64,000 nt of DNA from Candidatus Abzuiibacterium crystallinum (GCA_002787155.1 PCVY01000065.1:1286-65285); one strand, 5' to 3'. Shown: positions 18,192-56,843, numbered from the stretch's first letter. Numbers and translations are program-made. The notes: generated by a model not told the origin, from the letters alone.

Positions 18192-18272
18192 TTGATTCCT
18201 CCATTTTCCCCATTGGTACGGGGTCATTTATCCTGCAAAATTGCAGGTGCTTATTATTAAGCCTGTTTTTTC

Positions 18273-18432: not shown

Positions 18433-19710
18433 TCACAGGCCGCCAGTAGAGATTTCAATAAGCGGTAGAAACATAGAGATAACCAGTGTCCCGACAATCA
18501 CACCCATAAAGAGAATAACCATAGGCTCAATAATGACAGAAAGCCGTTGAATGGTGGCGTTCACGCGCTCTTCAAAGAAATTGGCGATCACTTCTAAGAA
18601 ACGGTCTAATTGGCCGCTTTCTTCCCCCACTGAAATCAGCTGTGTCACGAAAACGGGAAAGGCACCTTCTTTTTCAAGCGCCATGGCAACCCCGCTTCCT
18701 TTTTTAACACTTTCTTTCGCACGCTCCACCCTGTCTTCAATCGGCACTGTTCCGACCAGGGTTGATGCAATTTCCAACGCTTGAATAATCGGTGTACCGG
18801 CACGCACCATGGTGCCAAGCCCTCTCGCAAACCTCACAATGGCCACTTCTGTGATAAAAGTGCTCACCACAGGTATTTGAAGCTTAAATGAATCAATCCA
18901 TCTTTTTGACTCTCTTCTGCGATTGAAATATGCATAAGCCATAATAAAAAAAACAATGACTAATACAATCAATATAAAGTGAGATTGCATAAAACGACTC
19001 GAATCTAGGACTAATTGGGTAACTTCCGGAAGTTTTCTGTTCCGTCCAAAACTCTGAAAAACTTTCTCGAAAGTGGGAATCACCTTAACCATGAAAATAC
19101 TCAATGCTCCAATACAAAAACAGATCAAAATAACCGGATAAACCATGGCAGAAGTCAGTTTGCTTTTAAACCGTTCGCTCGACTCTTGATAGTTCTTAAT
19201 TTCGGTTAAAACCTCGGGCAAGGAACCGCTGGCTTCGCCGGCTTGAATTAAGCCAAACCAAAAAGGCGGGAAAACTTTTGGGTATTGAGCCAGGGCCCGG
19301 CTCAAGCTAAACCCTTGGCTGATTTTCTCAATCGCACCTTGTAATACTTTTTTTAAAAGCCCTTTCTTAATTCCTTTTTCAATAATCCCAAGCGACCTGA
19401 GAATCGGAACACCTGCTTTGAGAAGTGCGATCAATTGAATAAAAAAGGAAAGGAGATCACTTCCTTTCACAGTTTCAAAAAGCGTGATTTCACTGAATTT
19501 GGTTACTTTTTTCTTAGATTGATCAGCGGCGTTTTCCCGCTCTTGCTGCGTGAAGGTTTGTTTTTTACTTCCCGACTCTTGAACGGATAAAACAAAATAA
19601 CCCTCCGTTTGCAGCTGACCAACAAGGTCTTCTACATTCATGGCTTCGCGCACAAACTGCTCGATCTTAGCGCCTTCTTCCCGTTTTTTAACTTTGACGT
19701 TGAATTTCAT
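18433..19710 (-). CDS. pilC: Type IV pilus assembly platform protein PilC (GspF family)
   Basis: Two T2SS-F repeats and a three-TM architecture. 425 aa. Confidence 0.9.
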   Translation of the reverse strand: MKFNVKVKKREEGAKIEQFVREAMNVEDLVGQLQTEGYFVLSVQESGSKKQTFTQQERENAADQSKKKVTKFSEITLFETVKGSDLLSFFIQLIALLKAGVPILRSLGIIEKGIKKGLLKKVLQGAIEKISQGFSLSRALAQYPKVFPPFWFGLIQAGEASGSLPEVLTEIKNYQESSERFKSKLTSAMVYPVILICFCIGALSIFMVKVIPTFEKVFQSFGRNRKLPEVTQLVLDSSRFMQSHFILIVLVIVFFIMAYAYFNRRRESKRWIDSFKLQIPVVSTFITEVAIVRFARGLGTMVRAGTPIIQALEIASTLVGTVPIEDRVERAKESVKKGSGVAMALEKEGAFPVFVTQLISVGEESGQLDRFLEVIANFFEERVNATIQRLSVIIEPMVILFMGVIVGTLVISMFLPLIEISTGGL

Positions 19711-20203: not shown

Positions 20204-22396
20204 CTAAGATTCATATGCAATACTCAACACTTCCTCAAATGTGCTCACACCTTGTTCCACTTTTTTAATACCGCTTTCAAGCAAAGTCTGCATCCCTGCT
20301 TCACGCGCCGCTTTGCGGATAGTGCCCAAGTCTTCGTTGCGGGCAATTAAATGCCTAATGTTTTCATTGATCGGCATGATTTCATAGATAGCTTCACGGC
20401 CCCAATAACCGATGTCACGGCATTTCTTGCAACCCTTGGTTCGATAAATCTTGCGAGTTTTGAGTTTAAATTCTGCTGCTTCTTTTTCACTGGCTTCATA
20501 GGCTGACTTACAATGCGGGCAAAGCTTACGGATTAATCGCTGAGCGCCTACCATGAGTAAACTGCTAGATACCAAGTAAGGCTTCACACCAATATCAATT
20601 AAGCGGGTTACCGCGGTTGGTGCATCATTTGTATGTAGGGTGCTCAACACTAAGTGACCCGTGAGTGAGGCGCGTACGCAAACCTCTGCCGTTTCTTCGT
20701 CGCGCACTTCTCCCACCAAAATCACATCCGGATCTTGACGCAGAAAAGCCCGAAGACCCGAGGCAAAAGTAAGGCCGATGTCAGAGCGTACCTGTACCTG
20801 CCCAACACCTTCCATTTGATATTCGACAGGGTCTTCAATGGTCAGAATATTCGTATCGACTGCTTTAATATAATTCAGTGCGGCATAAAGCGTGGTGGAT
20901 TTACCGCTTCCCGTCGGACCCGTAATAAAAATAAGCCCATGCGGGCGTTTCACCGCTTCTTTGAAAATCTTTACTTGGTCTTCTTCGAAGCCGAGTTGAT
21001 TCAGCGTTTTAATGCCGGATCCTTTGTCTAAAAGCCGCATCACCACACGCTCGCCGTGCACCACGGGGACGGTCGAGACACGGACATCAATGTTACGATC
21101 TGTGTATTGAATGCTGAAAGAACCGTCTTGCGGAATGCGTTTTTCGGCAATGTCCATGCGCGATAAAATTTTAATGCGCGAGACAACAGCCAAATGAAGT
21201 TGTTTGGGAGGCGGCGGCAGCTCGTAAAGATTGCCGTCTAAGCGGTAACGAACGATTAAGCGGTCTTCAAAAGGTTCAATGTGAATGTCGCTTGCTTTAT
21301 CTTCAATGGCTTTCTTGAGCAGTAAGTCCACAAAACGAATGACCGGCGGTTGATTGGCGTTGGATTCTTTGTCGTTTAATTTAATTTTGACATCAACGCG
21401 TTCCTGCGCGGCTGATTTGGTTTCTTCTTCCATTTGCCGGCCGGATGTCACTTCTTCCAGCTGGACACTGCCGTAAAACATTTGAATTTTCTTCTCAAGT
21501 TCAGTCGGCCCTGCTAAAACAGGAATAATTTCAAGACCCGTGAGTTTCCGGAGGTCATCTAACATCAAAAAATCAAAAGGTTTCGCGAAAGCAACCGTTA
21601 AATTACGTCCTGAGCGAAAAAGAGGTAATGCTAATTTATCGCGGGCAAATGACTCGGGAAAAATTTCCTTCAGCCGCTGATCAGCTCTGGGATTTAACTG
21701 TTCGCCAATCATCATAGGGATATTAAGCTGCTGTGATAAAGCCACGATGATATCCGTTTCGCGGCGGACAAATTGAAGGTCAACTAAGATCTCGCCAAGC
21801 GGCCGGTTCTCTTTCTTTTGAATTTCCAAAGCCTCCTGCAATTGGTTGTCTGTGATGAGGCCCTGCTGAACCAATATCTCGCCTAATTTAAGCTTCCGCA
21901 CGGATGCTTTGATGTCAACCGTCATGGGGGCTTCTTCTTCCGGCCTGGTTTTAGCGCATAAAGCATAAAACTCTTCCAGCTTGGGTTCTAAATCTTTTTT
22001 CTTTGTTAAAACGGGATCGATTTCAAGATGGGTTCGCTTGGTCAATTCTTCCACGACCGATGGATCAAAGGTGTAAGCAAAAGCAACGGTCAATTGTTTT
22101 TCGGTTTTTTGAAGCGGTAAAACAGAATACTGCCGGGCCAGGGCTTCGGGAATCAAGAGGTGGAGATTTTGATCGAGCTGCGGTTTCAGCTGCTCGCCGA
22201 TCAGGATGGAGATATTGAGCTGCTGAGAAAGGGCGACTAAGATATCGGTTTCGCGTTTGATATATTGAAGCTTAAGAAGAACTTCGCCGAGAGGTTCTTT
22301 GAGCTTTTTTTGCTCTTCAAGCGCTTGATCAAGCTGGTCTTCTGAAATCAATCCCTGACTCAGAAGAATTTCTCCCAATCTTCGAGTCTTTCCCAT
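20204..22396 (-). CDS. pilB: Type IV pilus extension ATPase PilB (GspE family) with duplicated N-terminal GspE_N domains
   Basis: Walker A GPTGSGKSTT, Asp/His boxes and the tetracysteine motif CPHC…CKKC. Two GspE_N-like repeats (LGEILLSQGLISEDQL… and LGEILVQQGLITDNQL…). Confidence 0.9.
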   Translation of the reverse strand: MGKTRRLGEILLSQGLISEDQLDQALEEQKKLKEPLGEVLLKLQYIKRETDILVALSQQLNISILIGEQLKPQLDQNLHLLIPEALARQYSVLPLQKTEKQLTVAFAYTFDPSVVEELTKRTHLEIDPVLTKKKDLEPKLEEFYALCAKTRPEEEAPMTVDIKASVRKLKLGEILVQQGLITDNQLQEALEIQKKENRPLGEILVDLQFVRRETDIIVALSQQLNIPMMIGEQLNPRADQRLKEIFPESFARDKLALPLFRSGRNLTVAFAKPFDFLMLDDLRKLTGLEIIPVLAGPTELEKKIQMFYGSVQLEEVTSGRQMEEETKSAAQERVDVKIKLNDKESNANQPPVIRFVDLLLKKAIEDKASDIHIEPFEDRLIVRYRLDGNLYELPPPPKQLHLAVVSRIKILSRMDIAEKRIPQDGSFSIQYTDRNIDVRVSTVPVVHGERVVMRLLDKGSGIKTLNQLGFEEDQVKIFKEAVKRPHGLIFITGPTGSGKSTTLYAALNYIKAVDTNILTIEDPVEYQMEGVGQVQVRSDIGLTFASGLRAFLRQDPDVILVGEVRDEETAEVCVRASLTGHLVLSTLHTNDAPTAVTRLIDIGVKPYLVSSSLLMVGAQRLIRKLCPHCKSAYEASEKEAAEFKLKTRKIYRTKGCKKCRDIGYWGREAIYEIMPINENIRHLIARNEDLGTIRKAAREAGMQTLLESGIKKVEQGVSTFEEVLSIAYES

Positions 22397-22409: not shown

Positions 22410-24368
22410 TTATGCCGGTTTAACAGGCAATGAATCGGACGGTTGTTGTTCGGATTCAGGAACGACTGATTCTTCATCGGACTTGTCGTTATTCGCCCGA
22501 GGCGGCACAATTTTCCTGATCTTGATGGGCATGTTTCCTGGTGACTGACTGTCAAGCTTGGTAATTTTGACTGCCGGTTGCTGTTGGGTGTCATGTAAAA
22601 CCTTTTTCTCGGTCACGGCTAATATTGGTTTATCTTCCGCCTCAGTACCATTTGACTCGACAGGCTCAGAAGGCATCTCCAAAGGTAAGTCTACCTCAAT
22701 TTCGACGGTATTCAAATGGAGGGCTTCTTCAATGGCTTTGTCGCGCGCTTCTACATAAGCCACACCTTCAGTATGATCACCATTAAAGAACGATTTTTTG
22801 GTTAATTCCTTAAACCATGGCTTATCCCACACCTGCCAAAAGTCGGCCGCTTCTTCATCAATAGAAGTCATGTAATCCGGGATATTTTGCGCCGCTACCA
22901 TGCGCGTATCAGAAATGATGCGGGGCCGCAAGAAAATAATGAGTTCCCGGTCCAATTTTTGCGTGGTCCACTTTGAAAAGAAAAACTTAAAAATAGGAAT
23001 ATCGCCCAATAAGGGGATTTTTCTCAAAACTTTTTTGTCATCGCGCTGCGTTAATCCGCTAATCACAATCACTTGGCCGTCTTTGACGGCAAGTGTGGTG
23101 CGCGAAGCGCGAATACGCGGATCAAGAAAACTGCTCGAAAATTGAGCAGATTCCAGCGTTGAAAAGCGCGGTTCTAAAGTCATCGTGATGGTTTCGTTGT
23201 CATTAATGAGGGGTGTTGCTTTTAACGTCACGCCGATTTCCGTCCGTTCCGCAGAAGTCGCTGTGACAGGCGTAGAGGAGCCGGTAGCCACTTGGGTATT
23301 CTCGGCGATCACGGCGTTCACCGTGATCTTGATAAAGGCCGGCTCGTTATCCAAAACCAACATTCTGGGTTTGGCTATGATTTTGGTTCGATCATCCGTT
23401 TGAAGCGCTTTCAGCGTTCCTTCAACTTGTGAAACATCGAAACTGCCGAATGTAATACCCTTATCTTTTTCAATTAAATCGCCTTTATTAAACAAATCAC
23501 CAAATTGGTTAGGCGTCGGAATATTAAATGAGCCTTGTGCGCCCGAAATACTTCCCAACGAGCCTTCGGTCCCCGTCCCCCACTCTGTTCCGATAAAACG
23601 ATCAAAATCAAGCGCAGTTTCTAGCATGATGGCTTCGATTAAAACTTGCTTCAATGGTTTATCAAGCGCTTCAACCACTTTCTCAATTTGATCCAAACGA
23701 TCCGATGTATCCGTAATCACCAAACAATTCATACGGTCATTGATCGTCACGCGGCCTCTGGGGCTCAGAAGATCTTCGATAGTGCTTTTGATTTCGGTTT
23801 CTTCACCGCCTGTGATATTGACATTGCCCACCACGGATGAAGAGCCGCCGATATTGCTCGAACTGGTATTGCTTCCGGTTGACGACCCTGTGGTGCTGGA
23901 TTCTTGCAGTGTGACTTCTTTGGGCTTTGCAACGCGTACATATTTCAACTTGAAAACACGCGTTTCAAGCGGAATCAATGCATCTTCTCCCGTGGCAACT
24001 CGGATAATATAAATATTTTCTTCCCCGACTTTTTGCGCCACAAGCGCATTGCCTTTGACAATCGCTTCTAACGCATCTTCGAAAGTCACGTTTTCCAAAG
24101 ACAAATTAATTTTACGGGTAGCCGCATCTTCTGCCGTAACAAAATTAGCGCCTGAAATCGTCGATAATACCTTCAAGACCTCCGAAAGATCAGCGTTGCT
24201 AAAATCCATCGAAATCTTATTATCGCCCAGATTTTTAACATCCAACCGAGGCGCTTCAGCAGCAGGATCGGGTGCGGCAAACAGCTGTGAAGGAAAAAGG
24301 GAGAGAGATAAAACGATGACTAAAGCGGTTAATCGGGTCAAATAATTGTGAGAAACGGATAAGTTCAT
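22410..24368 (-). CDS. pilQ: Type IV pilus secretin PilQ
   Basis: Signal peptide, secretin-N/STN-like region, a low-complexity S/T/G linker and the C-terminal secretin domain (…VISGLTQRDDKKVLRKIPLLGDIPIFKFFF…). Confidence 0.9.
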   Translation of the reverse strand: MNLSVSHNYLTRLTALVIVLSLSLFPSQLFAAPDPAAEAPRLDVKNLGDNKISMDFSNADLSEVLKVLSTISGANFVTAEDAATRKINLSLENVTFEDALEAIVKGNALVAQKVGEENIYIIRVATGEDALIPLETRVFKLKYVRVAKPKEVTLQESSTTGSSTGSNTSSSNIGGSSSVVGNVNITGGEETEIKSTIEDLLSPRGRVTINDRMNCLVITDTSDRLDQIEKVVEALDKPLKQVLIEAIMLETALDFDRFIGTEWGTGTEGSLGSISGAQGSFNIPTPNQFGDLFNKGDLIEKDKGITFGSFDVSQVEGTLKALQTDDRTKIIAKPRMLVLDNEPAFIKITVNAVIAENTQVATGSSTPVTATSAERTEIGVTLKATPLINDNETITMTLEPRFSTLESAQFSSSFLDPRIRASRTTLAVKDGQVIVISGLTQRDDKKVLRKIPLLGDIPIFKFFFSKWTTQKLDRELIIFLRPRIISDTRMVAAQNIPDYMTSIDEEAADFWQVWDKPWFKELTKKSFFNGDHTEGVAYVEARDKAIEEALHLNTVEIEVDLPLEMPSEPVESNGTEAEDKPILAVTEKKVLHDTQQQPAVKITKLDSQSPGNMPIKIRKIVPPRANNDKSDEESVVPESEQQPSDSLPVKPA

Positions 24369-25332: not shown

Positions 25333-26931
25333 TTATTTGTTTACCCTGCCGCTTGTGTTAAAGTGTGCAATGATACGGAATTTTGTAAAATTACGCCCCA
25401 AATAGCTTGTCCTCTCCACGCCTTCTAATTTGAGAACAGCAAACCCTTTCATAAAAGAATCATTTTTTCTTAGCTCATCCGCATAATCATTTATTTGTCT
25501 CAATTCTTCTTCGGGAATCTCACGGTAGTAAATGTACCCGTTCATCGACAACTGACGGTCTGTAATGGCAAGCGCATTGCCGGAACTAAATGTTTGCTGG
25601 TATTGTAAATCAGAAAACCAAATGGGCACCGGAATGGTTTGAGAAAGCGTAATCAGTTTGTCCCCGATTAAAGACCGGCTTTCCTGAAAAGCTTGAACAA
25701 TTTTATTCTTGGTTTCCAGGTCACTCAAACGTTTCTGAAGCGCCGAAACAGACTCCAGCGCAAATTGAGGTGAGGCTATGTTCAAATTTTCTTCATCAAA
25801 TTTTAGTTTTCCAAGCGTTTGTTTTAATTGATGCATACGAGGCATGTAATAGCCGAAATAGTAACCAACCCCCAGTAAAAGAAGGGTTAAGATAACAGCG
25901 CCCGTCCACTTTCGGGGCGCTCGCCTTTCTTCAGCAACAACGCCGCTGCCCAAAAAAGAAACATCATAGGGCGTTAAATGTTCTCCGATGGCTCGCAGCG
26001 CCAATCCAATCGGAACTAAAAAAGTGTTGGCGGATTCAACGGCGAGACCTGTCTTCATGGGAAATTCGGGTATTTCAACCGGTACTTTGCCGTTGAAAAA
26101 CTTATCCAAAATTTGTGCCCACATCTTTAAATTCCAATCACCCGCCACATAGACATGTTCCGGCAATCCTGTCTCCCCCAATTGACGGTTAAAATAATCA
26201 AGTGAAGACTGGAATTCCGAGAAAAACCGTTCAGGGTGTTTAGGATCATCCGGTGATAAGTAAAAATCACGGCACACATAAAAAATATCACCGCGGTACA
26301 TTGAAACACTGACGGCACCGTCAACAGCAAAATGCAAAATACAATTTTTACTTTCTGCTCGCTTTTTTTGGTTATGAATTGCCCGCGCCAAAGAATAAAA
26401 AGGCGGCTCAGAATCAAAAACCTTGATTTTACCTGCTTCAACGGCATTGACGTGGCTGCGCAGGACATCAATTCGGATCGCATTAAAAACGACATCCAGA
26501 TTTTCTTTGTCTCGGGCTGGTTTGATTGAATACCCAACCACTGTTTCATCAAGGCGGTAAGGGACGTATCGCGACCCTTCGAAACGAATGGCGTCTTCTT
26601 GTTCTTTTTCACTGACGGCAGGCACTTGAAAATAGCGTGTCACGACTTGAGACGCCGCAGGACTTGTATAGACTTCTCCGCCCTTAATACCTGCCTTTGC
26701 GCAGCATTTTTGAATGGCCGCAGCCACATATTTTTGTCTGGCCGGGCCTTCTTCGGTGCTGTGTATCGTGTCGGGGAACGGTTCAAAATGAGCTTTGCTT
26801 AATTCAACACCGGTTAGCGTGCGGCGTACCTCGGCCACGTAAATACCGTTTTCCGCCACATGGATACCAATGCCTCTTCTGATGAGCTTTAATTTGAGGG
26901 AAATAATTCTCTGAAGTTCAATATCTTTCAT
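25333..26931 (-). CDS. pilMN: Fused PilM-PilN protein
   Basis: The N-terminal ~330 aa form an actin-like ATPase fold (PilM/FtsA-like). They are followed by a TM helix (VILTLLLLGVGYYFGYYM) and a ~170-aa PilN-like periplasmic coiled-coil domain in one 532-aa frame. Confidence 0.75.
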   Translation of the reverse strand: MKDIELQRIISLKLKLIRRGIGIHVAENGIYVAEVRRTLTGVELSKAHFEPFPDTIHSTEEGPARQKYVAAAIQKCCAKAGIKGGEVYTSPAASQVVTRYFQVPAVSEKEQEDAIRFEGSRYVPYRLDETVVGYSIKPARDKENLDVVFNAIRIDVLRSHVNAVEAGKIKVFDSEPPFYSLARAIHNQKKRAESKNCILHFAVDGAVSVSMYRGDIFYVCRDFYLSPDDPKHPERFFSEFQSSLDYFNRQLGETGLPEHVYVAGDWNLKMWAQILDKFFNGKVPVEIPEFPMKTGLAVESANTFLVPIGLALRAIGEHLTPYDVSFLGSGVVAEERRAPRKWTGAVILTLLLLGVGYYFGYYMPRMHQLKQTLGKLKFDEENLNIASPQFALESVSALQKRLSDLETKNKIVQAFQESRSLIGDKLITLSQTIPVPIWFSDLQYQQTFSSGNALAITDRQLSMNGYIYYREIPEEELRQINDYADELRKNDSFMKGFAVLKLEGVERTSYLGRNFTKFRIIAHFNTSGRVNK

Positions 26932-40839: not shown

Positions 40840-40840
40840 A

Positions 40841-42761: not shown

Positions 42762-42762
42762 C

Positions 42763-43908: not shown

Positions 43909-43960
43909 TTAAGGAAGAATTTTCTCACTTGGGGGCTAACCCCTCTGGCATTCAAAATAT

Positions 43961-44479: not shown

Positions 44480-44784
44480 TTCCATTGCATCATATTTTGT
44501 TTTTCTCATCGACTCTCTTTTGCATCGGTTTGTTTGGCGCACTTTCCAGGCGGCACGTGGTTGGCATTTTGATTTCGGTTGAGATTATGCTGAATGCTGC
44601 CAATGTAAACTTGGTCGCTTTTTCGCGCTGGACGGGTTTGATACCTGTCAACGCACAAGTTTTTGCTATTTTTATCATTACATTAGCAGCGGCAGCGGCA
44701 GCGGTGGCGCTTGCCATTGTTTTAACCATTTATCGAAACCGTAAAACTATTTATACAAACGAAATTGACCTGCTTAAATGGTAA
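44476..44784 (+). CDS. nuoK: NADH-quinone oxidoreductase subunit K
   Basis: Start refined to the ATG overlapping the nuoJ stop. ~100 aa, three TM helices. Confidence 0.85.
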   Translation: MIPLHHILFFSSTLFCIGLFGALSRRHVVGILISVEIMLNAANVNLVAFSRWTGLIPVNAQVFAIFIITLAAAAAAVALAIVLTIYRNRKTIYTNEIDLLKW

Positions 44785-46694: not shown

Positions 46695-46705
46695 GGGAGC
46701 TTATT

Positions 46706-48166: not shown

Positions 48167-48167
48167 C

Positions 48168-49607: not shown

Positions 49608-49862
49608 GTACAGTGTTCAGTGACCGGTGGCCAGTGATCAGAAATACTTTCAGATAATAATAAACGGTAAATCGGCTCTGATTTAAAAACAATATTAAAA
49701 TTAAGCGTTGGCGCGGCTGATCATTAACCACTGAGTACTGACCGCTGATTTGCTTTGACTTTCTTTATGTGTTAATTTACTAATAGTGCACAAGAGCACC
49801 GGACGCAAAAATTCTGGGCTCAGACCCCGCGTCAATTGCGGCTTCTGCGCTACACCAATACC

Positions 49863-50360
49863 ATGAATACAAAAAAAGGTTTTACACTTGTTGAACTTCT
49901 AATGGTGATTGCCATCATTGGTATCCTTGGTGCCATGATTTTACCGCGTCTTTTTGGCCCCACAGAACAAGGCCGCTCAACCGAAGCGCGCAATATGTTA
50001 GGGGCTATCCGTGAATTGGAAGAAGCCTATTTTCACGGGCCGGATGGCAGTTATTTAGCGTTGGATGCTGATGGTAATACTAATAATTTTTGTGATCAAG
50101 GTGAGGGTAACAGTTGGGATGTGCTCGGAATGGTTGACCCTAACGGCAATAGTGTTTATTTTGGTTATTGTGTAAGCGTCCCGAGTGCCGGTGAATTTTT
50201 AATCATCGCAACTCGAACTGGAACTGCCGACACACAAAATCAAGCGGGGACTATTATGTGTTTAAACCAAGCCGGTGAGTGGAGCGGCGATTATGTTCAT
50301 ATTCCGTTCAATCCGGACAATAATGCATGCTCGATAGGGCCGTGTTGCGGAGGTGGCTGA
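49863..50360 (+). CDS. Prepilin-type (type IV pilin-like) protein ending in CCGGG
   Basis: Start refined to MNTKKG|FTLVELLMVIAIIGILGAMILP. The C-terminus is Cys-containing (…CSIGPCCGGG). Confidence 0.75.
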   Translation: MNTKKGFTLVELLMVIAIIGILGAMILPRLFGPTEQGRSTEARNMLGAIRELEEAYFHGPDGSYLALDADGNTNNFCDQGEGNSWDVLGMVDPNGNSVYFGYCVSVPSAGEFLIIATRTGTADTQNQAGTIMCLNQAGEWSGDYVHIPFNPDNNACSIGPCCGGG

Positions 50361-50839
50361 TGAAAAACCTAATAAGCGCCAATCAAAAAGGTTTTACATT
50401 AGTAGAGCTTTTAATCACCATTGCCATTGTCGGCATTTTGGCTGCAATTATCGTTCCGAGATTTTTGCAGGGTGAAGCAGCGCGCGCTTCTGAGGCGCTT
50501 TCACAATTAGCGGCTATCCGTTTGGGTGAAGAAGATTACCGCACCAACAACGGCATTTATTGCGGAACGGATGACGCTTGTTGGACAGATTGGTCAACCA
50601 TTACCATGGATAATCCCGGCTCGTCTCCTGAACGTTTCTTTGATTACGATGTGACAACAAATGATGTCGATTCTTTTTGTATTGTTGCCACGAGGGGTGA
50701 CTTCAACCCTTCAGGCAATGCCTTTGCCGGAACAACCATCTGTATGGATAATTTTGGCTCTTATTTTGGTGATCATCCCAAAGGCCCGGGTTTTGGCCAT
50801 AGCCCTGGCTCAGGCACCGGATGCGAAGGGGTTTGTTGA
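50360..50839 (+). CDS. Prepilin-type (type IV pilin-like) protein
   Basis: Start refined to MKNLISANQKG|FTLVELLITIAIVGILAAIIVP, overlapping the previous stop. C-terminal Cys residues. Confidence 0.75.
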   Translation: MKNLISANQKGFTLVELLITIAIVGILAAIIVPRFLQGEAARASEALSQLAAIRLGEEDYRTNNGIYCGTDDACWTDWSTITMDNPGSSPERFFDYDVTTNDVDSFCIVATRGDFNPSGNAFAGTTICMDNFGSYFGDHPKGPGFGHSPGSGTGCEGVC

Positions 50840-51057
50840 TCCAAATTATCACATCTCACCTTTCATTTCCTTTTTAATCCCTCTTATTTCAATTTGACTT
50901 TCTTTAGCGTTAAATTAAGTCTTTTGCGTTTAACTCCCCCAATTGCTTTTACCCCCTCACATCGCTAAACTTTAAATGAGCCGAAAATAAGATTCAAATT
51001 AAGACTTGTGAGAACAGTTTAAAAAATGGAAAATACACAAGGAGCGTGTCACAGTAA

Positions 51058-51597
51058 ATGGTGAAACATTTGAAATGCTTTTCAAATCACAAAAGTGGTT
51101 TTTCATTGATTGAGGTCCTAGCCGCCAGCGTTATTTTGCTTTTAGTGGCCGGCGCGGTTTCTCAACTCAGTGCATACCCAAAAAGCAAAGTGATTGATCT
51201 TGAAAAACGCCTAGCTGTCATCGGAAAACTGGATGACGCTTTGGCCGCTTTCTCACAAAATCCTCCTTTTGCACTGGGGACGCAAACTTCTTGCAGCGCC
51301 AGTGGTGCTTGCGATGCAACGGTTTGCACGCATGATAATACAAACGCTTGCGAGGCGTTTACTCAAGGCGGTATTTGCGCCAATGCCATCGAGAATTCTG
51401 ATTTAACCGCGATTGTTCAGGCTTACCCAACGGCTTGCTATGTGGCAATTATTTTAGATCCGACCATTGATGACAATGTCAATAGTCCTGATCAACCTAG
51501 TTTTAGAAATACGCAAGTGGGCGCCCTGGCGGAATGGATGAGCTCACAAAATCAAAAAACGCACGAGGCTTTGACAACCTATGTTTTCGCGACATAA
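51058..51597 (+). CDS. Minor pseudopilin (GspH/FimT/PilV-like prepilin)
   Basis: …HKSG|FSLIEVLAASVILLLVAGAV… prepilin leader, then a Cys-containing soluble domain. Confidence 0.7.
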   Translation: MVKHLKCFSNHKSGFSLIEVLAASVILLLVAGAVSQLSAYPKSKVIDLEKRLAVIGKLDDALAAFSQNPPFALGTQTSCSASGACDATVCTHDNTNACEAFTQGGICANAIENSDLTAIVQAYPTACYVAIILDPTIDDNVNSPDQPSFRNTQVGALAEWMSSQNQKTHEALTTYVFAT

Positions 51598-52183
51598 ACA
51601 AAATCAAAAAGCTGTTCGGGGGCTGACGCTGGTGGAACTGATTGTTGCCATCACACTGGTGCCTATTTTGATTTATGCTGCCTCTATCATGTATTTAAAT
51701 GTCTCAAAAACCATGGAGACAACCGCTGTCCGCGGAGACGCACTCACGGAACACACGCTAGTCAAAAGCACGTTGGAACGCATGATCCCTAACGCGCAAA
51801 CGGCGGATGTGGATACAAGCGCTTATTGCACCGAGCAGTGCGGTGATGGCGGCGGCAATTGTGAATGGTGTTACGGTTTAACACTCAATTTACCTGACAA
51901 CAGCACCCAAATTCTGGGAATCCGTACAGACATCGGTGCATCATCCGCTGTTTTAGAGTTTAAAAACGAAGGCGACGTCCATTACACGCAAGTCTCTTAC
52001 ATGGGCACCATTACTTGCGGCACACCCGGTAGTTGCGATGCATTAGAAGGCAGCGCGCGTCCTTTTGATTGGGATGAAAACAATGAGGAAGTTTCATATA
52101 ATCTTGCATTTGATACGGGCGATGGAACTCGTTTTATGCATTCAGCCGGACACATTCGGTTGGAAGGCGGTACGGGCGTATGA
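51581..52183 (+). CDS. Minor pseudopilin (PilW-like prepilin)
   Basis: …AVRG|LTLVELIVAITLVPILIYAA… prepilin leader. The coding region overlaps both neighbours. Confidence 0.65.
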   Translation: MFSRHKQNQKAVRGLTLVELIVAITLVPILIYAASIMYLNVSKTMETTAVRGDALTEHTLVKSTLERMIPNAQTADVDTSAYCTEQCGDGGGNCEWCYGLTLNLPDNSTQILGIRTDIGASSAVLEFKNEGDVHYTQVSYMGTITCGTPGSCDALEGSARPFDWDENNEEVSYNLAFDTGDGTRFMHSAGHIRLEGGTGV

Positions 52184-55100
52184 GTACTCTAAAACGTCAA
52201 AAAAATAACAGCGGTTATGTGACCTTGGCACTCACCTTCCTGATTGCCATAGCGGTGCCTCTTTTCTATATCGGCGTTTACTATGACATTTCCAACCAAA
52301 ACAAAGTGGTGTCACGCGACAAACAGGATAAAATTTTGAAATGGTCTACGCGCGCCATGTTAGCCAGAACGCAATACGAATTTCAGAAACAAGTCGCGGA
52401 ATTTAGTCTGGAAGACTCGCGTTTCAATCTAGGCTTGGTAGAAGAAATTAACACTCCCGTCTTTAATTGGTTTGATCAAGGAGCGCCTTTTAAAGCAAAC
52501 TATGCTGCTTTCATTCAAGGAACGGAATTAAGCGACTTTGCGGTAAAAAATGTGACGCCTGTTCCGGGCTGCCTCGATTGCGGCGTGACGGTTAATGATA
52601 TCGACCGTTTATTAGGAACAGCGGAAATCAATATTACAATTCAAACACAGTTAGAAGACGTCAATCTAATCGACGCCACAAGGCGGATGACGCAGCATTT
52701 GAGTTTAGCCGTTTCTAACTTAGCGGATTTTGCTATCTTCACGAATAAAGACTTCGTCACCAACCCCGGACCTGACACAGTATACGATGGTCCCATTTAC
52801 GTCGGTGAAAATGCTTATTTAACGCCCAGTAAAGACCACAAAATTACCTTGCGTTTTGACGGCACAGATGCCTACGATGACGGAAAAGTTTACAACCTTA
52901 AAGCCAGCGGACACCTTTCTTGGTTTGGTCCGCGAGGTCTTGGCTGCGACCCTAAGGACAACAATTGCGTGAGCGATGAGAATCAGTTATTTGAAAGCGG
53001 TCTTTATGAAGTTGATGTTTTTGGCAAACCGGTCATGTACCACTTTATCAGCAACATTGACTATGGCGATGTGGGTGAATCTACTTTGGAAGCGATGGAT
53101 AACTCGCCTGAAAATTTTGACAGTGATCTCAATAATGATCAATATATCAAATTACTTGGAAGCAGTCCGCTGAGGCCGCCTGTTAGTTTCTTTACAGGGC
53201 GGGATCAGTCAGATGGCATGTGGCCCAGCACAACCGTTCATACGCTGACAGCAGATCTTAATTCCGGTGGTGCCGTATTTAACAGCTCAACAGCATATGA
53301 TGGGACCAATCCCGTGAATTACTATGAGAACCCTGATTGGGACGGATTTCGTGCGACACACTTTGACCGTCTGAATGGATTTTCATTAATAAAAGACGGC
53401 GCACCGGCACAACAATTGCTTTTGGGCGGCGTGGATGATCCTCATGTCTTAATTGAGTCGGCAGGCTCTGGTGACAATGGTTTTGTTAAAAGTGTTAAAT
53501 TGCAATGGCTGGGGCGGGAACCGCAACCCAATATTTCGGGTTTATCCATTGACTTCAAACAACTATTTTGTCAACAACCTGATCTGATTGGGTCTTCTTT
53601 TCCCCATAATTGTACCGTCGGTGAAAACTATGAAGATCCTCTATTGTGGGAAGGCCGTTATTTTTATTATGACAGCGGTACTTTTGGATCCGCCAATAAC
53701 GAAAACGGTTTCATTAGAATTTTAAAACCGCCATTCAGTCTTTACTGGAGTTTTTTGATGCCCTCCGAAGACTCCGCCACTTATATTGATAACAGACGAA
53801 AACCAAGCACCGGCACTACCGCATTGGCTATTATTGAAATAGACGTGGCAAAACTAAAAAATTTAATTGAAAACGGACTTGTCACGGAAGGCGCGTTAGG
53901 TCCTAACGGTGACACCTACGAGAAATATAACGATTTGGGGCTGGCAAACCGGTTTGGAGATCCTGATAAGCCATTCATTCTATACATTGGCCTAACCCCG
54001 CCTCTGAACACAACAAACCGGGATCCTTGGTGGACACCTCTTAATGGTCATGGTGCCACCCATACATTTGATCCTTTCCGCGCAGTCGTAAGATTGGTTC
54101 ATGCAGACCAACTGCCTGATGCAGGTTTGACGATTGCGACAAACGGACCGGTTCAAATTGTCGGTGACTATAACACAGAAGCACCTCAGGAGGGCACCCC
54201 GCCTGAAGCATGTACCATGAAACCTGCAGCGGTCATGGCGGACCAGATTATGGTGCTCTCTAACAGTTGGCAGGATTACACAGGAACGCCCGACGATCCT
54301 TATATTGACCCGAGTGACGGCATTCAATATCCGGCACCCAGAGATGATTTGAACAACCTGTTCTCCAAAGACGATTACAGAGCCCATCCCGTCCGTTCTC
54401 AATGTACCGAACAAGAAGAAGAAAACGGCAGCTGCTTTGATGACACAGCGGAGATAAATGCCATGTTAATCGGCGGCGATATCCCCAACCAATTGGTAGC
54501 CGTTACTGCTTCTGAGATTGAAGGCGGGAACCTGGACCGGTATGGTTTGTTTTATGATGGTAATTTAACGGGTGTGAATGGTGACGAAAAATTAAGACCG
54601 CATAACAACCCGAGCGCATCTGATGACCAGCATACCTACGTCAAAGGCACCCAAGTCAGAGATCAAAATCAAATTGATGACACCGCTTATCTGAATATAC
54701 CGGTCATACTTATCACAGGTTATGATGCTAACGATAACCCTATTTATAGCAACGCCGGAACGGTCGGGCAAGTGTTTGGAACAGCCAATAATGACGGAAA
54801 GTGTGCGGATTGCTGGCGAGATGGCGTGACGATTCCTGATATTCCGATGTACCTTACAATGGATCGTGACGGTACTTACACTTATTTGAATACGGGCAAT
54901 ATGAACACTTCGCATTTGAAACCATCCGACATGATTCAGACTGATCCAACCAGCAATACGGCTAAATGGGCAGTGAAACCGGGTTCCCGTTTTGCTGCTA
55001 TTGTGAATGACGGAAAAAATTCGAACGAACGCTTTTTATTTCCGAACACAGCCGCCAAATGCTGCAAATTAAACAGCCCTGAAGGTTGCTGTGATGTCGC

Positions 55101-55866
55101 TCAACAAGGCTGCAACGGCCCGCCCTGCGATGCTTGCCCGGGTCAAAACTATGTGGTTTGTAACGACTGCTCAGGTTTTAACAATGGTCAAAATATTTGC
55201 AATACGGATCCTAACGGCCAAGGTAAATGTTCCAACAACATGGAATGCTGGGATTGTCCATATTATCAGTGCGGCGGTGAAGGCGGCTGTTCTACTGAAA
55301 CTTATTGCGGGCCTGAGGCTGATACCGTTTGTTGGTCGGACACATGTCCGGCAGAATTAGGATGCGGGCGAGATGCGTATCAATGCGGCACTGCCGGCGA
55401 ATTTCCGCCTGAAATCAAAGTGGTTTATTCACCGGGCGGTAAACCAAGGTTTACTTACCGCCAAAACGGCCAAAATCCGCAAAATGGAACCATTAAACGA
55501 AAGGGGCTCTATGTTCCTCATTGGGAACCAAAATACAGCGGTGGAATTGAAAACTATGTCCGCTTAGGAGAAGATTGGCGGCATTGGGATTGCAACTGCA
55601 CCGGCAATAGCTGTTCATCTTGTACGCCGACGACTACCAATAATGAAATGAAAATTACCGGAACATTAGATATTTTATGGCCGTCTCAAAGTTTAGTGAA
55701 AGGGAACGGACCGGATGCCCCGAAAGCTTTTTGGGTCAGCACCACTTATACAGCGCCGGACAGAACCGTCAGATATGCCCGGGATTTGCGCGAGAATGAA
55801 GTCTGTCCGCCGGCCGGTCTTCCCATGTCTGTTCAGTTGACACTGAAAGGGTTTAAGCAGGAATAA
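52180..55866 (+). CDS. Giant (1228 aa) PilX_N-anchored putative pilus-tip adhesin with Cys-rich C-terminal module
   Basis: The N-terminus KRQKNNSGYVTLALTFLIAIAVPLFYIGV is PilX-N-terminal-like (single TM, no prepilin cleavage motif). A large extracellular body follows. The last ~200 aa contain over 40 Cys (CCKLNSPEGCCDVAQQGCNGPPCDACPGQNYVVCNDCSG…). Translationally coupled to the pseudopilin genes. Confidence 0.6.
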   Translation: MSTLKRQKNNSGYVTLALTFLIAIAVPLFYIGVYYDISNQNKVVSRDKQDKILKWSTRAMLARTQYEFQKQVAEFSLEDSRFNLGLVEEINTPVFNWFDQGAPFKANYAAFIQGTELSDFAVKNVTPVPGCLDCGVTVNDIDRLLGTAEINITIQTQLEDVNLIDATRRMTQHLSLAVSNLADFAIFTNKDFVTNPGPDTVYDGPIYVGENAYLTPSKDHKITLRFDGTDAYDDGKVYNLKASGHLSWFGPRGLGCDPKDNNCVSDENQLFESGLYEVDVFGKPVMYHFISNIDYGDVGESTLEAMDNSPENFDSDLNNDQYIKLLGSSPLRPPVSFFTGRDQSDGMWPSTTVHTLTADLNSGGAVFNSSTAYDGTNPVNYYENPDWDGFRATHFDRLNGFSLIKDGAPAQQLLLGGVDDPHVLIESAGSGDNGFVKSVKLQWLGREPQPNISGLSIDFKQLFCQQPDLIGSSFPHNCTVGENYEDPLLWEGRYFYYDSGTFGSANNENGFIRILKPPFSLYWSFLMPSEDSATYIDNRRKPSTGTTALAIIEIDVAKLKNLIENGLVTEGALGPNGDTYEKYNDLGLANRFGDPDKPFILYIGLTPPLNTTNRDPWWTPLNGHGATHTFDPFRAVVRLVHADQLPDAGLTIATNGPVQIVGDYNTEAPQEGTPPEACTMKPAAVMADQIMVLSNSWQDYTGTPDDPYIDPSDGIQYPAPRDDLNNLFSKDDYRAHPVRSQCTEQEEENGSCFDDTAEINAMLIGGDIPNQLVAVTASEIEGGNLDRYGLFYDGNLTGVNGDEKLRPHNNPSASDDQHTYVKGTQVRDQNQIDDTAYLNIPVILITGYDANDNPIYSNAGTVGQVFGTANNDGKCADCWRDGVTIPDIPMYLTMDRDGTYTYLNTGNMNTSHLKPSDMIQTDPTSNTAKWAVKPGSRFAAIVNDGKNSNERFLFPNTAAKCCKLNSPEGCCDVAQQGCNGPPCDACPGQNYVVCNDCSGFNNGQNICNTDPNGQGKCSNNMECWDCPYYQCGGEGGCSTETYCGPEADTVCWSDTCPAELGCGRDAYQCGTAGEFPPEIKVVYSPGGKPRFTYRQNGQNPQNGTIKRKGLYVPHWEPKYSGGIENYVRLGEDWRHWDCNCTGNSCSSCTPTTTNNEMKITGTLDILWPSQSLVKGNGPDAPKAFWVSTTYTAPDRTVRYARDLRENEVCPPAGLPMSVQLTLKGFKQE

Positions 55867-55868
55867 AC

Positions 55869-56843
55869 ATGAAATCATGGCTGAACCTAAAAAAAAACAA
55901 TTGGGGCGTTACCCTTTATGAACTGCTTGCAGTCATTGTCATTGTGGGCATCATGGCAAGCGTCACTTATGCCACCTATACACGCCAAGCCCAGAAAAAT
56001 CAAAGGAAAGAAGCTGTTAAATTTATTCATTCTCTTTTAGACGGGGCACGTCTTTATGATATGCAGCACCCGCCCTCACTCACCGGAGACCGCACGCATC
56101 AAGATTGGATAGAAAATTGGAAAACGTATTTGGTTCAGTATGCCACAAGAGAGTTTGATTACTCGCCCCCCAATTCACCTATTTTATTAACCGGTCCTGA
56201 AAGCAAACGAAATAGTTATTTTTTTGATGAGGTGGACGGTAAATTACATATTTATGCCAACTATTCCAACATTCCCGTTTATGATTACGTGACTTGGGAC
56301 GGTCAAATTGGTGAAGAATCCGGCGGCGGTGTCGAATGTACGGCTAATGCGGAATGTTTTTCTGATTTTTGCACCACAGCAACTTGCGTTGACGGCACTT
56401 GTCAGTATGCTCCGCTCACCTGTGACGATGGCAATGAATGTACGGCAGACAGCTGCGATGACGCAATTGGATGTGTTTTTGATCCTGGTCCAAGAAACGG
56501 CGAAACTTGCGACGACGGCAACCAGTGTACCAATAACGGCACTTGTAATAATGGTGTTTGCGAACCCGGAAACAACCTGCCTGATAATACGCCTTGCGAC
56601 GACGGCAATCTCTGTACCTTGAACGACAAATGTTTAAGCGGCGCTTGTCTTGGCTCGGTAAAATCTTGCGTGCTGACCATTGGCACCCCTATTTGCCAAA
56701 GAACATCCTGCAATCCTGACACGGGTAATTGCGACCTGTATCCCGGCAATAACACCTCCTGCGATGACGGTGATCCTTGCAGCGATCCTGACTATTGCGA
56801 CGGTGCCGGGAATTGTATCGGCTCATCCCCTCCTTGCAACTAA
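55869..56843 (+). CDS. Prepilin-like protein fused to tandem cysteine-rich CDDGNxCTxxxC repeats
   Basis: The N-terminus NNWG|VTLYELLAVIVIVGIMASVTYA is a prepilin-like leader plus hydrophobic helix. The C-terminus carries about five ~30-aa repeats (CDDGNECTADSCDDAIGC, CDDGNQCTNNGTCNNGVC, CDDGNLCTLNDKCLSGAC…). They are visible in the DNA as tgcgacgacggcaa direct repeats at 56430-56650. Confidence 0.6.
   Translation: MKSWLNLKKNNWGVTLYELLAVIVIVGIMASVTYATYTRQAQKNQRKEAVKFIHSLLDGARLYDMQHPPSLTGDRTHQDWIENWKTYLVQYATREFDYSPPNSPILLTGPESKRNSYFFDEVDGKLHIYANYSNIPVYDYVTWDGQIGEESGGGVECTANAECFSDFCTTATCVDGTCQYAPLTCDDGNECTADSCDDAIGCVFDPGPRNGETCDDGNQCTNNGTCNNGVCEPGNNLPDNTPCDDGNLCTLNDKCLSGACLGSVKSCVLTIGTPICQRTSCNPDTGNCDLYPGNNTSCDDGDPCSDPDYCDGAGNCIGSSPPCN

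What the first reader, a model, noticed from the sequence alone, without database searches (positions are those of the whole stretch)
49863..56843. Minor-pilin operon ending in two disulfide-rich giant or fusion proteins: a putative new pilus-tip adhesin pair
Sequence evidence: six co-directional genes are translationally coupled (overlaps of 1-17 nt). They comprise two prepilins with canonical G|FTLVELL leaders, two pseudopilins (G|FSLIEVL and G|LTLVELIV), a 1228-aa protein, and a prepilin fused to Cys-rich repeats. The 1228-aa protein has a PilX_N-like N-terminus, and its last ~200 residues contain more than 40 cysteines. The fused prepilin (WG|VTLYELL leader) carries five tandem Cys-rich repeats of the form CDDGN-x-CT-x3-C-x2-G-x-C. 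These resemble the Cys-rich repeats known from myxobacterial and eukaryotic extracellular proteins. From established knowledge: the pilV-pilW-pilX-pilY1 minor pilin sets prime pilus assembly and place an adhesin at the tip. Inference: the giant protein is a PilY1 analogue, and the repeat-bearing pilin is a tip-displayed adhesin. I do not know of this architecture being described.
Basis: partly seen in the sequence, partly recalled or inferred. Interest (0 to 1): 0.8.

Follow-up and report, generated by a model that had tools for sequence, protein, structure and literature searches.

The report
Omnitrophota pilus-tip gene set, giant cap
This is a conserved six-gene pilin operon of an uncultivated Omnitrophota bacterium whose tip-forming subunits include a 1228-residue capping pilin and a pilin carrying a cysteine-rich stalk; it is an unusual version of pilus-tip designs already described in other bacteria, not a new kind of system.

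Summary
There are two translationally coupled blocks (g1-g2 and g3-g6) separated by 218 nt. The 1228-aa protein has 36 cysteines in total, not more than 40 in its tail. The last protein has four canonical and two degenerate Cys units, not five.

The window comes from Ca. Omnitrophica CG11. The same six-gene array, in the same order, occurs in four divergent metagenomic loci; a fifth, truncated locus keeps only g5 and g6.

The giant protein is not a PilY1 homologue. It has a prepilin-like N-terminus that lacks Glu5. It occupies the GspK/PilX slot. It is homologous to widespread roughly 570-aa proteins with PilX_N/GspK-type N-termini (hhalign 99.7%). Its low-confidence model best matches GspK, then ComZ and ice-binding beta-solenoids. 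It is best read as a giant capping minor pilin of the ComZ/HpsA type.

The last gene is a modular pilin: a conserved pilin module plus a Cys-rich stalk of variable length (324-893 aa across orthologues).

A matching assembly machinery (PilM-like, secretin, PilB/GspE, PilC/GspF) lies 25 kb upstream. Adhesion is inferred, not shown.

Verdict: a new variant of a known kind, of moderate interest.

The parts
49754..49767 (+). Exact 14-mer TTTGACTTTCTTTA, 109 nt upstream of g1. Candidate shared promoter or operator element.
   Evidence: The same exact 14-mer recurs at 50893 upstream of g3. Its function was not tested. The sigma-70 scan was not above shuffles.
49863..50360 (+). g1: 165-aa type IV pilin with the look of a major pilin (MNTKKG|FTLVELL, Glu5, 6 Cys).
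   Evidence: Pfam N_methyl 5.3e-8 and TIGR02532 31.3 bits, above cutoff. Orthologues share 41-43% identity in L006 and L008.
50360..50839 (+). g2: 159-aa paralogous pilin (QKG|FTLVELL, Glu5, 6 Cys). Overlaps g1 by 1 nt.
   Evidence: N_methyl 1.3e-9 and TIGR02532 35 bits. Orthologues share 44-46% identity.
50893..50906 (+). Second copy of the 14-mer TTTGACTTTCTTTA, inside the 218-nt g2-g3 gap.
   Evidence: The gap is unstructured as RNA (z = +1.41) and has no Rfam match. A gap of 139-235 nt is conserved in the related loci.
51058..51597 (+). g3: 179-aa minor pilin (SG|FSLIEVL, Glu5, 7 Cys) in the GspI/PilV slot.
   Evidence: N_methyl 2.4e-6 and TIGR02532 23.5 bits. Orthologues in L006 and L008 share 28-30% identity, and a gene occupies the same slot in L011 and L012. 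The subclass is assigned by gene position only.
51581..52183 (+). g4: 200-aa minor pilin (RG|LTLVELIV, Glu5) in the GspJ/PilW slot. Overlaps g3 by 17 nt.
   Evidence: TIGR02532 18.0 bits, above its 16.3 cutoff. Weak GspJ hit, TIGR01711 8.6e-4, below cutoff. Orthologues share 30-31% identity.
52180..55866 (+). g5: 1228-aa giant capping pseudopilin of the GspK/PilX class (NSG|YVTLA, no Glu5). Overlaps g4 by 4 nt.
52180..52719 (+). g5 aa 1-180: class-III-like leader, hydrophobic alpha1 helix and a first beta-sheet, forming the pilin-like core.
54073..54288 (+). g5 aa 632-703: the most widely conserved motif (...VRLVNAxxLPxxGLTIATNGxxQxxGDYN...PAAVxADQIxVLSxxWxD).
   Evidence: Shared with more than 100 proteins of 470-1330 aa that have PilX_N-like N-termini.
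55060..55386 (+). g5 aa 961-1069: Cys-rich patch with 20 Cys in 109 aa.
   Evidence: Six Cys here are invariant among the eight close relatives. AF2 confidence is below 50, so the fold is unknown.
55477..55863 (+). g5 aa 1100-1228: conserved C-terminal block (YSGGxENxxRxxEDW...). It probably returns to the pilin core.
   Evidence: Collinear third conserved block in distant relatives. In relatives this block corresponds to HpsA model positions ~1333-1414. The role of the terminal strand is inferred.
55869..56318 (+). g6 aa 1-150: pilin module (NNWG|VTLYELL, Glu5) in the GspH/FimU slot.
   Evidence: TIGR02532 17.1 bits, above its 16.3 cutoff. Weak GspG and GspH N-terminal hits. The orthologue profile matches solved pilins down to 2.8e-12. 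It aligns to a plain 171-aa pilin in L009.
56337..56840 (+). g6 aa 157-324: Cys-rich stalk of six four-Cys units (26 Cys), Dicty_CTDC-like.
   Evidence: Dicty_CTDC 1.7e-5 at 25 bits, below its cutoff of 27. AF2 pLDDT is 80-97. The module length varies among orthologues, which are 324-893 aa overall.
17724..18227 (-). Additional GspG-like pilin (KG|FTLVELL) inside the machinery cluster.
18433..19710 (-). Platform protein (GspF/PilC family).
   Evidence: Pfam T2SSF 2.1e-52. GspF scores 293 bits and PilC 266 bits, both below the equivalog cutoffs.
20204..22396 (-). Assembly ATPase (PilB/GspE) with two N-terminal MshEN c-di-GMP-binding domains.
   Evidence: T2SSE 9.8e-138 and MshEN in two copies. 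PilB scores 652.5 bits and GspE 616.2 bits, each just below cutoff.
22410..24368 (-). Secretin (PilQ/GspD family).
   Evidence: Pfam Secretin 1.1e-36. It is 37% identical to the secretin adjacent to the giant-pilin block in L009.
25333..26931 (-). PilM-like protein (532 aa).
   Evidence: PilM_2 1.9e-11. Amuc_1101 family 5.2e-17. Homologous to the 514-aa PilM_2 protein of L009, E = 5e-30.

Best explanation
The region encodes the filament subunits of a type IV filament (type IV pilus or T2SS-like) system.

Proposed parts:
- g1 and g2 are paralogous pilins of the major type.
- g3, g4, g5 and g6 are the four core minor pilins that form the priming or tip complex. They stand in the order GspI/PilV-like, GspJ/PilW-like, GspK/PilX-like, GspH/FimU-like.
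- g5 is the cap. It has a prepilin-type leader and a hydrophobic helix but no Glu5, so no subunit can dock above it.
- The small pilin core of g5 carries an insertion of roughly 1000 residues. The insertion is probably a beta-solenoid plus a disulfide-rich patch, and it would sit at the very tip.
- g6 is a modular pilin. Its pilin module links the tip trimer to the fibre, and its C-terminal Cys-rich stalk projects sideways or outwards.

Proposed working:
- The set is assembled by the PilM-like, secretin, PilB/GspE and PilC/GspF machinery encoded 25 kb upstream on the other strand.
- The most likely role of the g5 head and g6 stalk is ligand or cell-surface binding. In this putatively host-associated phylum that would mean attachment to a partner or prey cell.

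Shown versus inferred:
- Shown: gene content, conservation, the Glu5 pattern, remote homology and linkage to machinery genes.
- Inferred: the subclass of g3, g4 and g6 (by gene position only), tip location, disulfide bonding, and adhesion as the function.
For: - Prepilin signatures are present in g1-g4 and g6.
- Glu5 is present in those five subunits and absent from the giant subunit in the window and in every full-length orthologue seen: L006, L008, L011, L012.
- All six genes are conserved in order in L006 and L008, at 27-46% identity in the best BLASTP alignments. L011 and L012 carry the same six-gene array. The truncated locus L007 keeps g5 and g6.
- In an Omnitrophota MAG (L009), a distant 1245-aa homologue lies in the order pilin, pilin, giant, plain 171-aa pilin, 295-aa protein, PilM_2 protein, two small genes, secretin, MshEN-ATPase. 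The window's secretin and PilM-like proteins are homologous to those of L009.
- A 574-aa relative has the same pilin, giant, PilM-like layout.
- The g5 family aligns to the short family with PilX_N/GspK-type N-termini at hhalign probability 99.7%, E = 9.6e-27.
- Of 15 family members, 4 hit the NCBIfam GspK N-terminus and 8 hit HpsA weakly. One relative hits Pfam PilX_N at 9.7e-9.
- The g6 orthologues keep the pilin module and vary the Cys-rich module, giving 324-893 aa and 26-100 Cys. Two of them pass the TIGR02232 and Dicty_CTDC cutoffs.
- The Cys-rich part of g6 is modelled with pLDDT 80-97.
Against: - g5 itself matches no curated family model.
- The subclass of g3, g4 and g6 rests on gene order and very weak hits only.
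- No prepilin peptidase or retraction ATPase lies in the window.
- The machinery scores equally well as T4aP and as T2SS, so a surface pilus is not proven.
- There is no evidence at all on the ligand. The Cys-rich module has no significant solved structural neighbour.
Confidence: 0.7

Rival explanations
1. The genes build the pseudopilus of a type II secretion-like system. g3, g4 and g5 form the piston tip inside the periplasm and secretin, and the large g5 and g6 domains bind secreted cargo or the secretin rather than external targets.
For: The best NCBIfam matches of the pilins are to the N-termini of GspG, GspH, GspJ and GspK. The platform protein scores higher as GspF than as PilC. The I-J-K gene order followed by a PilM-like gene (in T2SS, GspL is the PilM-like component) in L009 and L010 recalls T2SS operons. 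The top fold hit is T2SS GspK.
Against: The ATPase and secretin score higher as PilB and PilQ than as GspE and GspD. A 130-kDa cap plus a stalk of variable length and up to 100 Cys looks like a diversifying surface-exposed structure rather than a periplasmic piston. The published giant relatives (ComZ, HpsA/PilX-EPS) belong to true pili.
Confidence: 0.15
2. The operon builds a competence (DNA-uptake) pilus, and the giant g5 cap is a ComZ-like DNA receptor at the tip.
Against: No competence genes (ComEA, ComEC, DprA) were noted next to the operon in the window or in the related loci. The ComZ match has an rmsd of 8.3 A on a low-confidence model. A Cys-rich acidic stalk (many D, N and G residues) is an unlikely DNA binder.
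Confidence: 0.08
3. g5 is a PilY1/PilC-type non-pilin adhesin.
For: It follows the minor pilins as pilY1 does in Pseudomonas, and it is large. The beta-solenoid PilX proteins have been proposed to take over the PilY1 plug function.
Confidence: 0.04
4. The Cys-rich regions are intracellular metal-binding or redox (electron-transfer) domains rather than disulfide-bonded extracellular modules.
For: The Cys density is high: 18% in g5 aa 961-1069 and 15% in g6 aa 157-324. Conductive pilins have been predicted in some Omnitrophota (PMC10066038).
Against: Both proteins begin with a class III signal and a single N-terminal hydrophobic helix. By established pilin topology this places the rest of the protein outside the cytoplasm. 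The g6 Cys count is even (26), in regular four-Cys units shared with secreted Myxococcota-type repeat proteins. No CxxCH haem motif or ferredoxin-type motif families were hit.
Confidence: 0.03

Closest known systems
GspK / PilX class of capping minor (pseudo)pilins (ETEC GspK-GspI-GspJ complex, PDB 3CI0; Pseudomonas XcpX, PDB 5VTM)
   Different: g5 is about four times larger than GspK (1228 aa against ~300 aa). Its insertion is not the GspK alpha-domain but a mostly beta, probably solenoid, region plus a Cys-rich patch. g5 itself fails every curated model.
Thermus thermophilus ComZ and cyanobacterial PilX / HpsA-like (PilX-EPS) pilins with beta-solenoid inserts (PMC6561018; bioRxiv 10.64898/2026.02.12.705559)
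   Same: Giant PilX-slot pilins whose pilin fold is interrupted by an ice-binding-protein-like beta-solenoid, proposed to replace PilY1 as tip plug or adhesin. Some exceed 1280 aa. The g5 model hits ComZ and ice-binding proteins, and relatives hit the HpsA model weakly.
   Different: The phylum differs (Omnitrophota). HpsA scores are 26-77 bits against a cutoff of 400, and g5 itself does not hit. g5 has an extra conserved Cys-rich patch. No link to polysaccharide secretion or competence genes was seen.
Modular type IV pilins (Streptococcus sanguinis PilB with a vWA module and PilC with a lectin module; PMC8179133)
   Same: An N-terminal pilin module with a functional module grafted on its C-terminus for display by the filament. 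The paper reports more than 1200 such proteins in 264 architectures.
   Different: The g6 module is a Dicty_CTDC/myxo_disulf-type Cys-rich repeat stalk. I found no description of that module on a pilin. None of the 81 other Cys-repeat proteins retrieved has a pilin leader. g6 sits in the core GspH/FimU slot rather than being an accessory pilin.
PilY1 / PilC tip adhesins of type IVa pili
   Same: A large protein encoded with the minor pilins and presumed to sit at the tip and mediate adhesion.
   Different: PilY1 is not a pilin and is defined by a C-terminal beta-propeller. g5 has a pilin N-terminus and no propeller.
Myxococcus-type cysteine-rich acidic repeat (TIGR02232) and Dictyostelium CTDC repeat (PF00526) proteins
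   Same: The same CDDGNxCTxDxC-type four-Cys units. g6 shares 29-55% identity in BLASTP local alignments covering 11-67% of g6 with such secreted proteins. The consensus shows two alternating unit types.
   Different: Those proteins have ordinary signal peptides or lipoprotein-like N-termini, not prepilin leaders. g6 itself is just below the PF00526 cutoff and does not hit TIGR02232.

Membership tests
Type IV pilin / class III signal peptide proteins (PF07963, TIGR02532) | Short basic leader ending in Gly, followed by a roughly 20-residue hydrophobic alpha1N segment | tested here: met
   All six proteins show this pattern. TIGR02532 is above its 16.3-bit cutoff for g1 (31.3), g2 (35.0), g3 (23.5), g4 (18.0) and g6 (17.1). 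g5 fits by inspection only.
Type IV pilin / class III signal peptide proteins (PF07963, TIGR02532) | Glu at position 5 of the mature protein | tested here: met
   Present in g1-g4 and g6, and absent in g5 (Ala5). The same pattern holds in four orthologous loci.
Type IV pilin / class III signal peptide proteins (PF07963, TIGR02532) | Cleavage and N-methylation by a prepilin peptidase (PilD/GspO) | not testable with these tools
   No peptidase gene was noted among the window ORFs scanned.
GspK / PilX capping minor pilins | Pilin-type N-terminus lacking Glu5 | tested here: met
   g5 reads NSG|YVTLA, and every full-length orthologue seen has A or V at +5.
GspK / PilX capping minor pilins | Gene placed after the I-like and J-like minor pilins and next to the assembly genes | tested here: met
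   The order g3-g4-g5-g6 is conserved. In L009 and L010 the giant homologue lies one or two genes upstream of a PilM_2-type gene.
GspK / PilX capping minor pilins | Match to curated models (PF14341 PilX_N; NF037980 T2SS_GspK) | tested here: not met
   g5 has no hit at E <= 1. Four of 15 family members hit the GspK N-terminus (best 2.1e-6, far below the 130-bit cutoff). One distant relative hits PilX_N above cutoff.
GspK / PilX capping minor pilins | Pilin fold with an inserted extra domain | tested here: inconclusive
HpsA (NF038301) / PilX-EPS | Score at or above 400 bits to the HpsA model | tested here: not met
   g5 has no hit. Relatives score 26-77 bits over two short blocks. This supports remote homology, not membership.
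PilY1 / PilC adhesins | C-terminal PilY1/PilC beta-propeller domain | tested here: not met
Modular type IV pilins (sensu Raynaud et al. 2021) | [quoted passage not shown] | tested here: met
   g6 has a pilin module at aa 1-150 and a Cys-rich repeat module at aa 157-324. Orthologues carry TIGR02232, PF00526 and PF13948 above cutoff.
Dictyostelium CTDC repeat (PF00526) | Pfam gathering score of 27 bits | tested here: not met
   g6 scores 25.0 bits (E = 1.7e-5), narrowly below. The orthologues in L006 (27.4) and L008 (34.6) pass.
Myxococcus cysteine-rich acidic repeat (TIGR02232) | NCBIfam cutoff of 20.8 bits | tested here: not met
   g6 has no hit at E <= 0.1. The orthologues in L006 (72.7 bits) and L008 (70.5 bits) pass.

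The most novel reading that the evidence does not exclude
In one Omnitrophota lineage the pilus tip may have become a dedicated, disulfide-stabilised host-recognition organelle. A roughly 130-kDa solenoid cap with a conserved Cys patch would be paired with a core minor pilin whose Cys-rich stalk expands and contracts between species (324-893 aa). Together they would set which partner or prey cell these ultra-small bacteria attach to. This would be the first case of a Dicty_CTDC/myxo_disulf-type repeat used as a pilin-borne adhesin.
Probability: 0.3. Interest if true: 0.65.

Novelty: new variant of a known kind. Interest (0 to 1): 0.45.

Why it matters
Omnitrophota are uncultivated, mostly ultra-small bacteria. 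Genome content suggests they are parasites or predators, and type IV pili are among the few conserved candidates for host contact (PMC10066038).

This operon names the likely contact parts: a giant capping pilin and a variable Cys-rich stalk pilin. Both are conserved in several divergent genomes. That gives concrete targets for antibodies, cryo-ET, metaproteomics and binding assays.

It also extends two recent ideas beyond the organisms where they were defined. One is modular pilins. The other is solenoid-bearing PilX caps that replace PilY1.

Finally, it links a large unannotated protein family (155 HMMER hits, no Pfam domain) to the GspK/PilX slot of type IV filament systems.

Tried and rejected
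- Word-indexed homologue search with g5 alone, and then with a 15-sequence alignment, returned essentially only g5 itself. The second search was wasted. The exhaustive HMMER search was what revealed the family.
- Sequence search of the g5 family profile against PDB chains found nothing below E = 0.16.
- No vWA or beta-propeller domain was found in g5.
- The orthologous g6 sequences from fetched loci could not be used for structure prediction. The g6 pilin module was therefore modelled poorly (pLDDT 37-65 over aa 60-160), and its GspH/FimU subclass remains unproven.
- Profiles of the g3 and g4 orthologues matched only the N-terminal helices of solved pilins. No GspI or GspJ assignment by sequence was possible.
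- The promoter and terminator scan was not above shuffles. There is no Rfam family in the window. The g2-g3 gap has no stable RNA structure.
- The held supplements of Raynaud et al. contain no entry for the Cys-repeat InterPro ids or for Omnitrophica. No paper in the library holds both 'minor pilin' and 'cysteine-rich repeat'.

Full report
**Source and gene map**

The 1228-aa protein is identical to a hypothetical protein of Candidatus Omnitrophica bacterium CG11_big_fil_rev_8_21 (GCA_002781965.1, contig PFGO01000092.1).

Six co-directional genes occupy 49863-56843:

| Gene | Coordinates | Length | Leader and start of mature protein |
|---|---|---|---|
| g1 | 49863-50360 | 165 aa | MNTKKG\|FTLVELL |
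| g2 | 50360-50839 | 159 aa | ...QKG\|FTLVELL |
| g3 | 51058-51597 | 179 aa | SG\|FSLIEVL |
| g4 | 51581-52183 | 200 aa | RG\|LTLVELIV |
| g5 | 52180-55866 | 1228 aa | NSG\|YVTLALTF |
| g6 | 55869-56843 | 324 aa | NNWG\|VTLYELL |

The NADH dehydrogenase (nuo) operon ends just upstream. A CitMHS-family transporter gene and the F-type ATP synthase operon follow downstream.

**Check of the observation**

The prepilin motifs are confirmed by Pfam N_methyl and TIGR02532 for g1-g4 and g6. Three details need correcting.

- The genes form two coupled blocks, g1/g2 and g3/g4/g5/g6. The overlaps or gaps are -1, -17, -4 and +2 nt. The blocks are separated by a 218-nt AT-rich spacer.
- g5 has 36 Cys in total. 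Twenty are concentrated in aa 961-1069 and four in aa 1138-1148. It does not have more than 40 in the last 200 residues.
- g6 has 26 Cys in six four-Cys units. Four units begin with CDDG[ND]xC[TS]. That motif occurs nowhere else in the six-frame translation of the window.

g6 scores 25.0 bits on Dicty_CTDC against a cutoff of 27. It does not hit TIGR02232.

**The operon is conserved**

- An exhaustive HMMER search with g5 aa 1-1200 found 155 proteins at E <= 0.001. Seven are close relatives of 1081-1287 aa at 33-46% identity.
- Five loci carrying such relatives were recovered from genome and metagenome collections and by exact look-up: L006, L007, L008, L011 and L012.
- Four loci hold the whole six-gene array in the same order. 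L007 is cut within the g5 homologue and keeps only g5 and g6.
- For L006 and L008, best BLASTP alignments to the window proteins give 27-46% identity.
- L011 and L012 also keep the position between the nuo and ATP synthase operons.
- In every locus where the N-termini are visible, five subunits have Glu5 and the giant one has Ala or Val at +5.
- The sixth gene always encodes a prepilin leader, a conserved pilin module of about 150 aa, and a Cys-rich region of very different length. The proteins are 324, 354, 415, 633, 813 and 893 aa, with 26-100 Cys.
- The long orthologues pass the curated cutoffs for TIGR02232, Dicty_CTDC and DUF4215.
It is not met.

**What the giant protein is**

g5 hits no Pfam or NCBIfam model and no PDB sequence.

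Its family shares three collinear conserved blocks with about 25 proteins of 900-1330 aa: aa ~5-255, 632-703 and 1100-1215. More than 100 proteins of 470-750 aa share the central block. Most of those inspected begin with a 'G[FY]AL...' hydrophobic segment without Glu5.

A profile-profile comparison of the close family with 20 of the short proteins gives 99.7% probability and E = 9.6e-27 over 427 columns.

Members of this wider family hit curated models only weakly. One hits Pfam PilX_N (9.7e-9). Four of 15 hit the N-terminus of NCBIfam GspK. Eight of 15 hit two short blocks of HpsA. All of the NCBIfam scores are far below cutoff.

Gene context agrees with this reading.
- In an Omnitrophota MAG (L009) a 1245-aa homologue lies in the order pilin, pilin, giant, plain 171-aa pilin, 295-aa protein, PilM_2 protein, two small genes, secretin, MshEN-ATPase.
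- A 574-aa relative (L010) has the same pilin, giant, PilM-like layout.
- This is the GspK/PilX slot.

An AlphaFold2 model of aa 29-1228, built on a 15-sequence alignment, is poor overall (pLDDT 52.6, pTM 0.49). It does show a long N-terminal helix followed by an antiparallel sheet at pLDDT 60-85.

- two-partner-secretion beta-helices.

No vWA domain or meaningful beta-propeller appears.

A 2026 preprint describes the same combination for cyanobacterial PilX proteins: a pilin fold interrupted by an ice-binding-like beta-solenoid. The insert is expanded in HpsA-like members of more than 1280 aa. The authors propose that it replaces the PilY1 plug. The solved structure of ComZ shows the same design.

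I therefore read g5 as a giant capping minor pilin of that kind, not as a PilY1 homologue. The Cys patch is partly conserved: six Cys are invariant among the eight close relatives. It is modelled at pLDDT below 50, so its fold is unknown.

**What the last protein is**

The g6 pilin module is conserved among orthologues and aligns with the plain 171-aa pilin that occupies the same slot in L009.

Its profile matches the alpha1 helices of many solved pilins, down to E = 2.8e-12. Weak NCBIfam hits are to the N-termini of GspG and GspH.

Of the 81 other proteins retrieved through the repeats, none has a prepilin leader.

g6 therefore fits the published definition of a modular pilin (PMC8179133), with a module type I could not find described on a pilin.

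**Assembly machinery**

On the minus strand at 17.7-27 kb the window encodes:
- a PilM-like protein;
- a secretin;
- a PilB/GspE ATPase with two MshEN c-di-GMP-binding domains;
- a GspF/PilC platform protein;
- one more GspG-like pilin.

The secretin and PilM-like proteins are homologous to those encoded next to the giant-pilin block in L009 (37% identity, E = 5e-100; E = 5e-30).

The scores do not separate a type IVa pilus from a T2SS-like system. PilB scores 652 bits against 616 for GspE. PilQ scores 206 against 183 for GspD. GspF scores 294 against 266 for PilC. All are below the equivalog cutoffs.

**Mechanism proposed**

- g3, g4 and g5 form the tip trimer. g5 is uppermost because it lacks Glu5.
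- g6 links the trimer to the g1/g2 fibre and displays its stalk.
- The machinery 25 kb away extrudes the filament through the secretin.

By established pilin topology, everything after the N-terminal helix lies outside the cytoplasm. The Cys-rich parts are therefore expected to be disulfide-bonded, not metal clusters.

Binding to a partner or prey surface is the most likely use. This follows from the variable stalk and from the phylum's inferred lifestyle (PMC10066038). It remains an inference. The rivals are a T2SS-type pseudopilus, a ComZ-like DNA receptor, a true PilY1 analogue and an intracellular metal domain. Each is scored separately.

**Novelty**

The kind is known: a core minor-pilin set, a PilX cap with a solenoid insert, and a modular pilin.

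The new features are:
- the Omnitrophota family itself, which no curated model recognises;
- the conserved Cys patch in the cap;
- the Cys-rich repeat stalk grafted onto the fourth core minor pilin.

I rate this a new variant of a known kind, with interest 0.45.

Noticed in passing
window 5822-8266 (+): An 814-aa membrane protein matches both the TLC ATP/ADP transporter family (8.5e-16) and MFS_1. ATP/ADP translocases are listed as symbiosis-related markers in Omnitrophota (PMC10066038).
   Followed up: no
window 20204-22396 (-): The PilB/GspE-type ATPase is 730 aa and carries two N-terminal MshEN-type c-di-GMP-binding domains. This suggests c-di-GMP control of filament assembly.
   Followed up: partly
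window 22410-24368 (-) and 25333-26931 (-): The secretin and PilM-like proteins give weak hits to the Akkermansia Amuc_1098 and Amuc_1101 pilus-cluster families. This hints at a PVC-type variant of the machinery.
   Followed up: no
window 49754-49767 and 50893-50906 (+): The exact 14-mer TTTGACTTTCTTTA occurs only twice in the window, once upstream of each coupled gene block. Similar, mismatched copies lie in the g2-g3 gaps of L011 and L008. A TGTTAAyTTT-like motif precedes the g1 orthologues in five loci. This may be a shared promoter or operator.
   Followed up: partly
window 39617-49607 (+): The nuo operon reads B, C, D, I, H, J, K, L, M, N, with no NuoE, NuoF or NuoG genes seen between D and I. 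This looks like an 11-subunit complex I-like enzyme lacking the NADH-oxidising module.
   Followed up: no
window 49863-56843; L011 4763-12762; L012 4361-11490: The pilin operon sits between the nuo and F-type ATP synthase operons in the window and in two divergent relatives. In L007 it is likewise followed by ATP synthase genes. Omnitrophota pilus clusters have been reported next to ATPase operons. The operon here has delta and epsilon subunits and looks like the ordinary respiratory type.
   Followed up: partly
window 49863-52183 (+): The four small pilins each carry 6-7 Cys. g1 ends in ...CSIGPCCGGG and g2 in ...GTGCEGVC. This is more than the single disulfide pair typical of type IV pilins.
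   Followed up: no
window about 19750-20150 (-): A roughly 125-aa ORF (MQEFKFDFEDLKVYQKAL...) lies between the ATPase and platform genes. By recall it resembles the four-helix-bundle '23S rRNA intervening-sequence' proteins. It was not scanned against any library.
   Followed up: no
window 4171-5814 (+) and 14345-15901 (-): Two ORFs of 547 and 518 aa have no family hit: no Pfam match for either, and no NCBIfam match for the 518-aa ORF. The 518-aa ORF lies at the end of the pilus machinery cluster, after a TPR protein.
   Followed up: no
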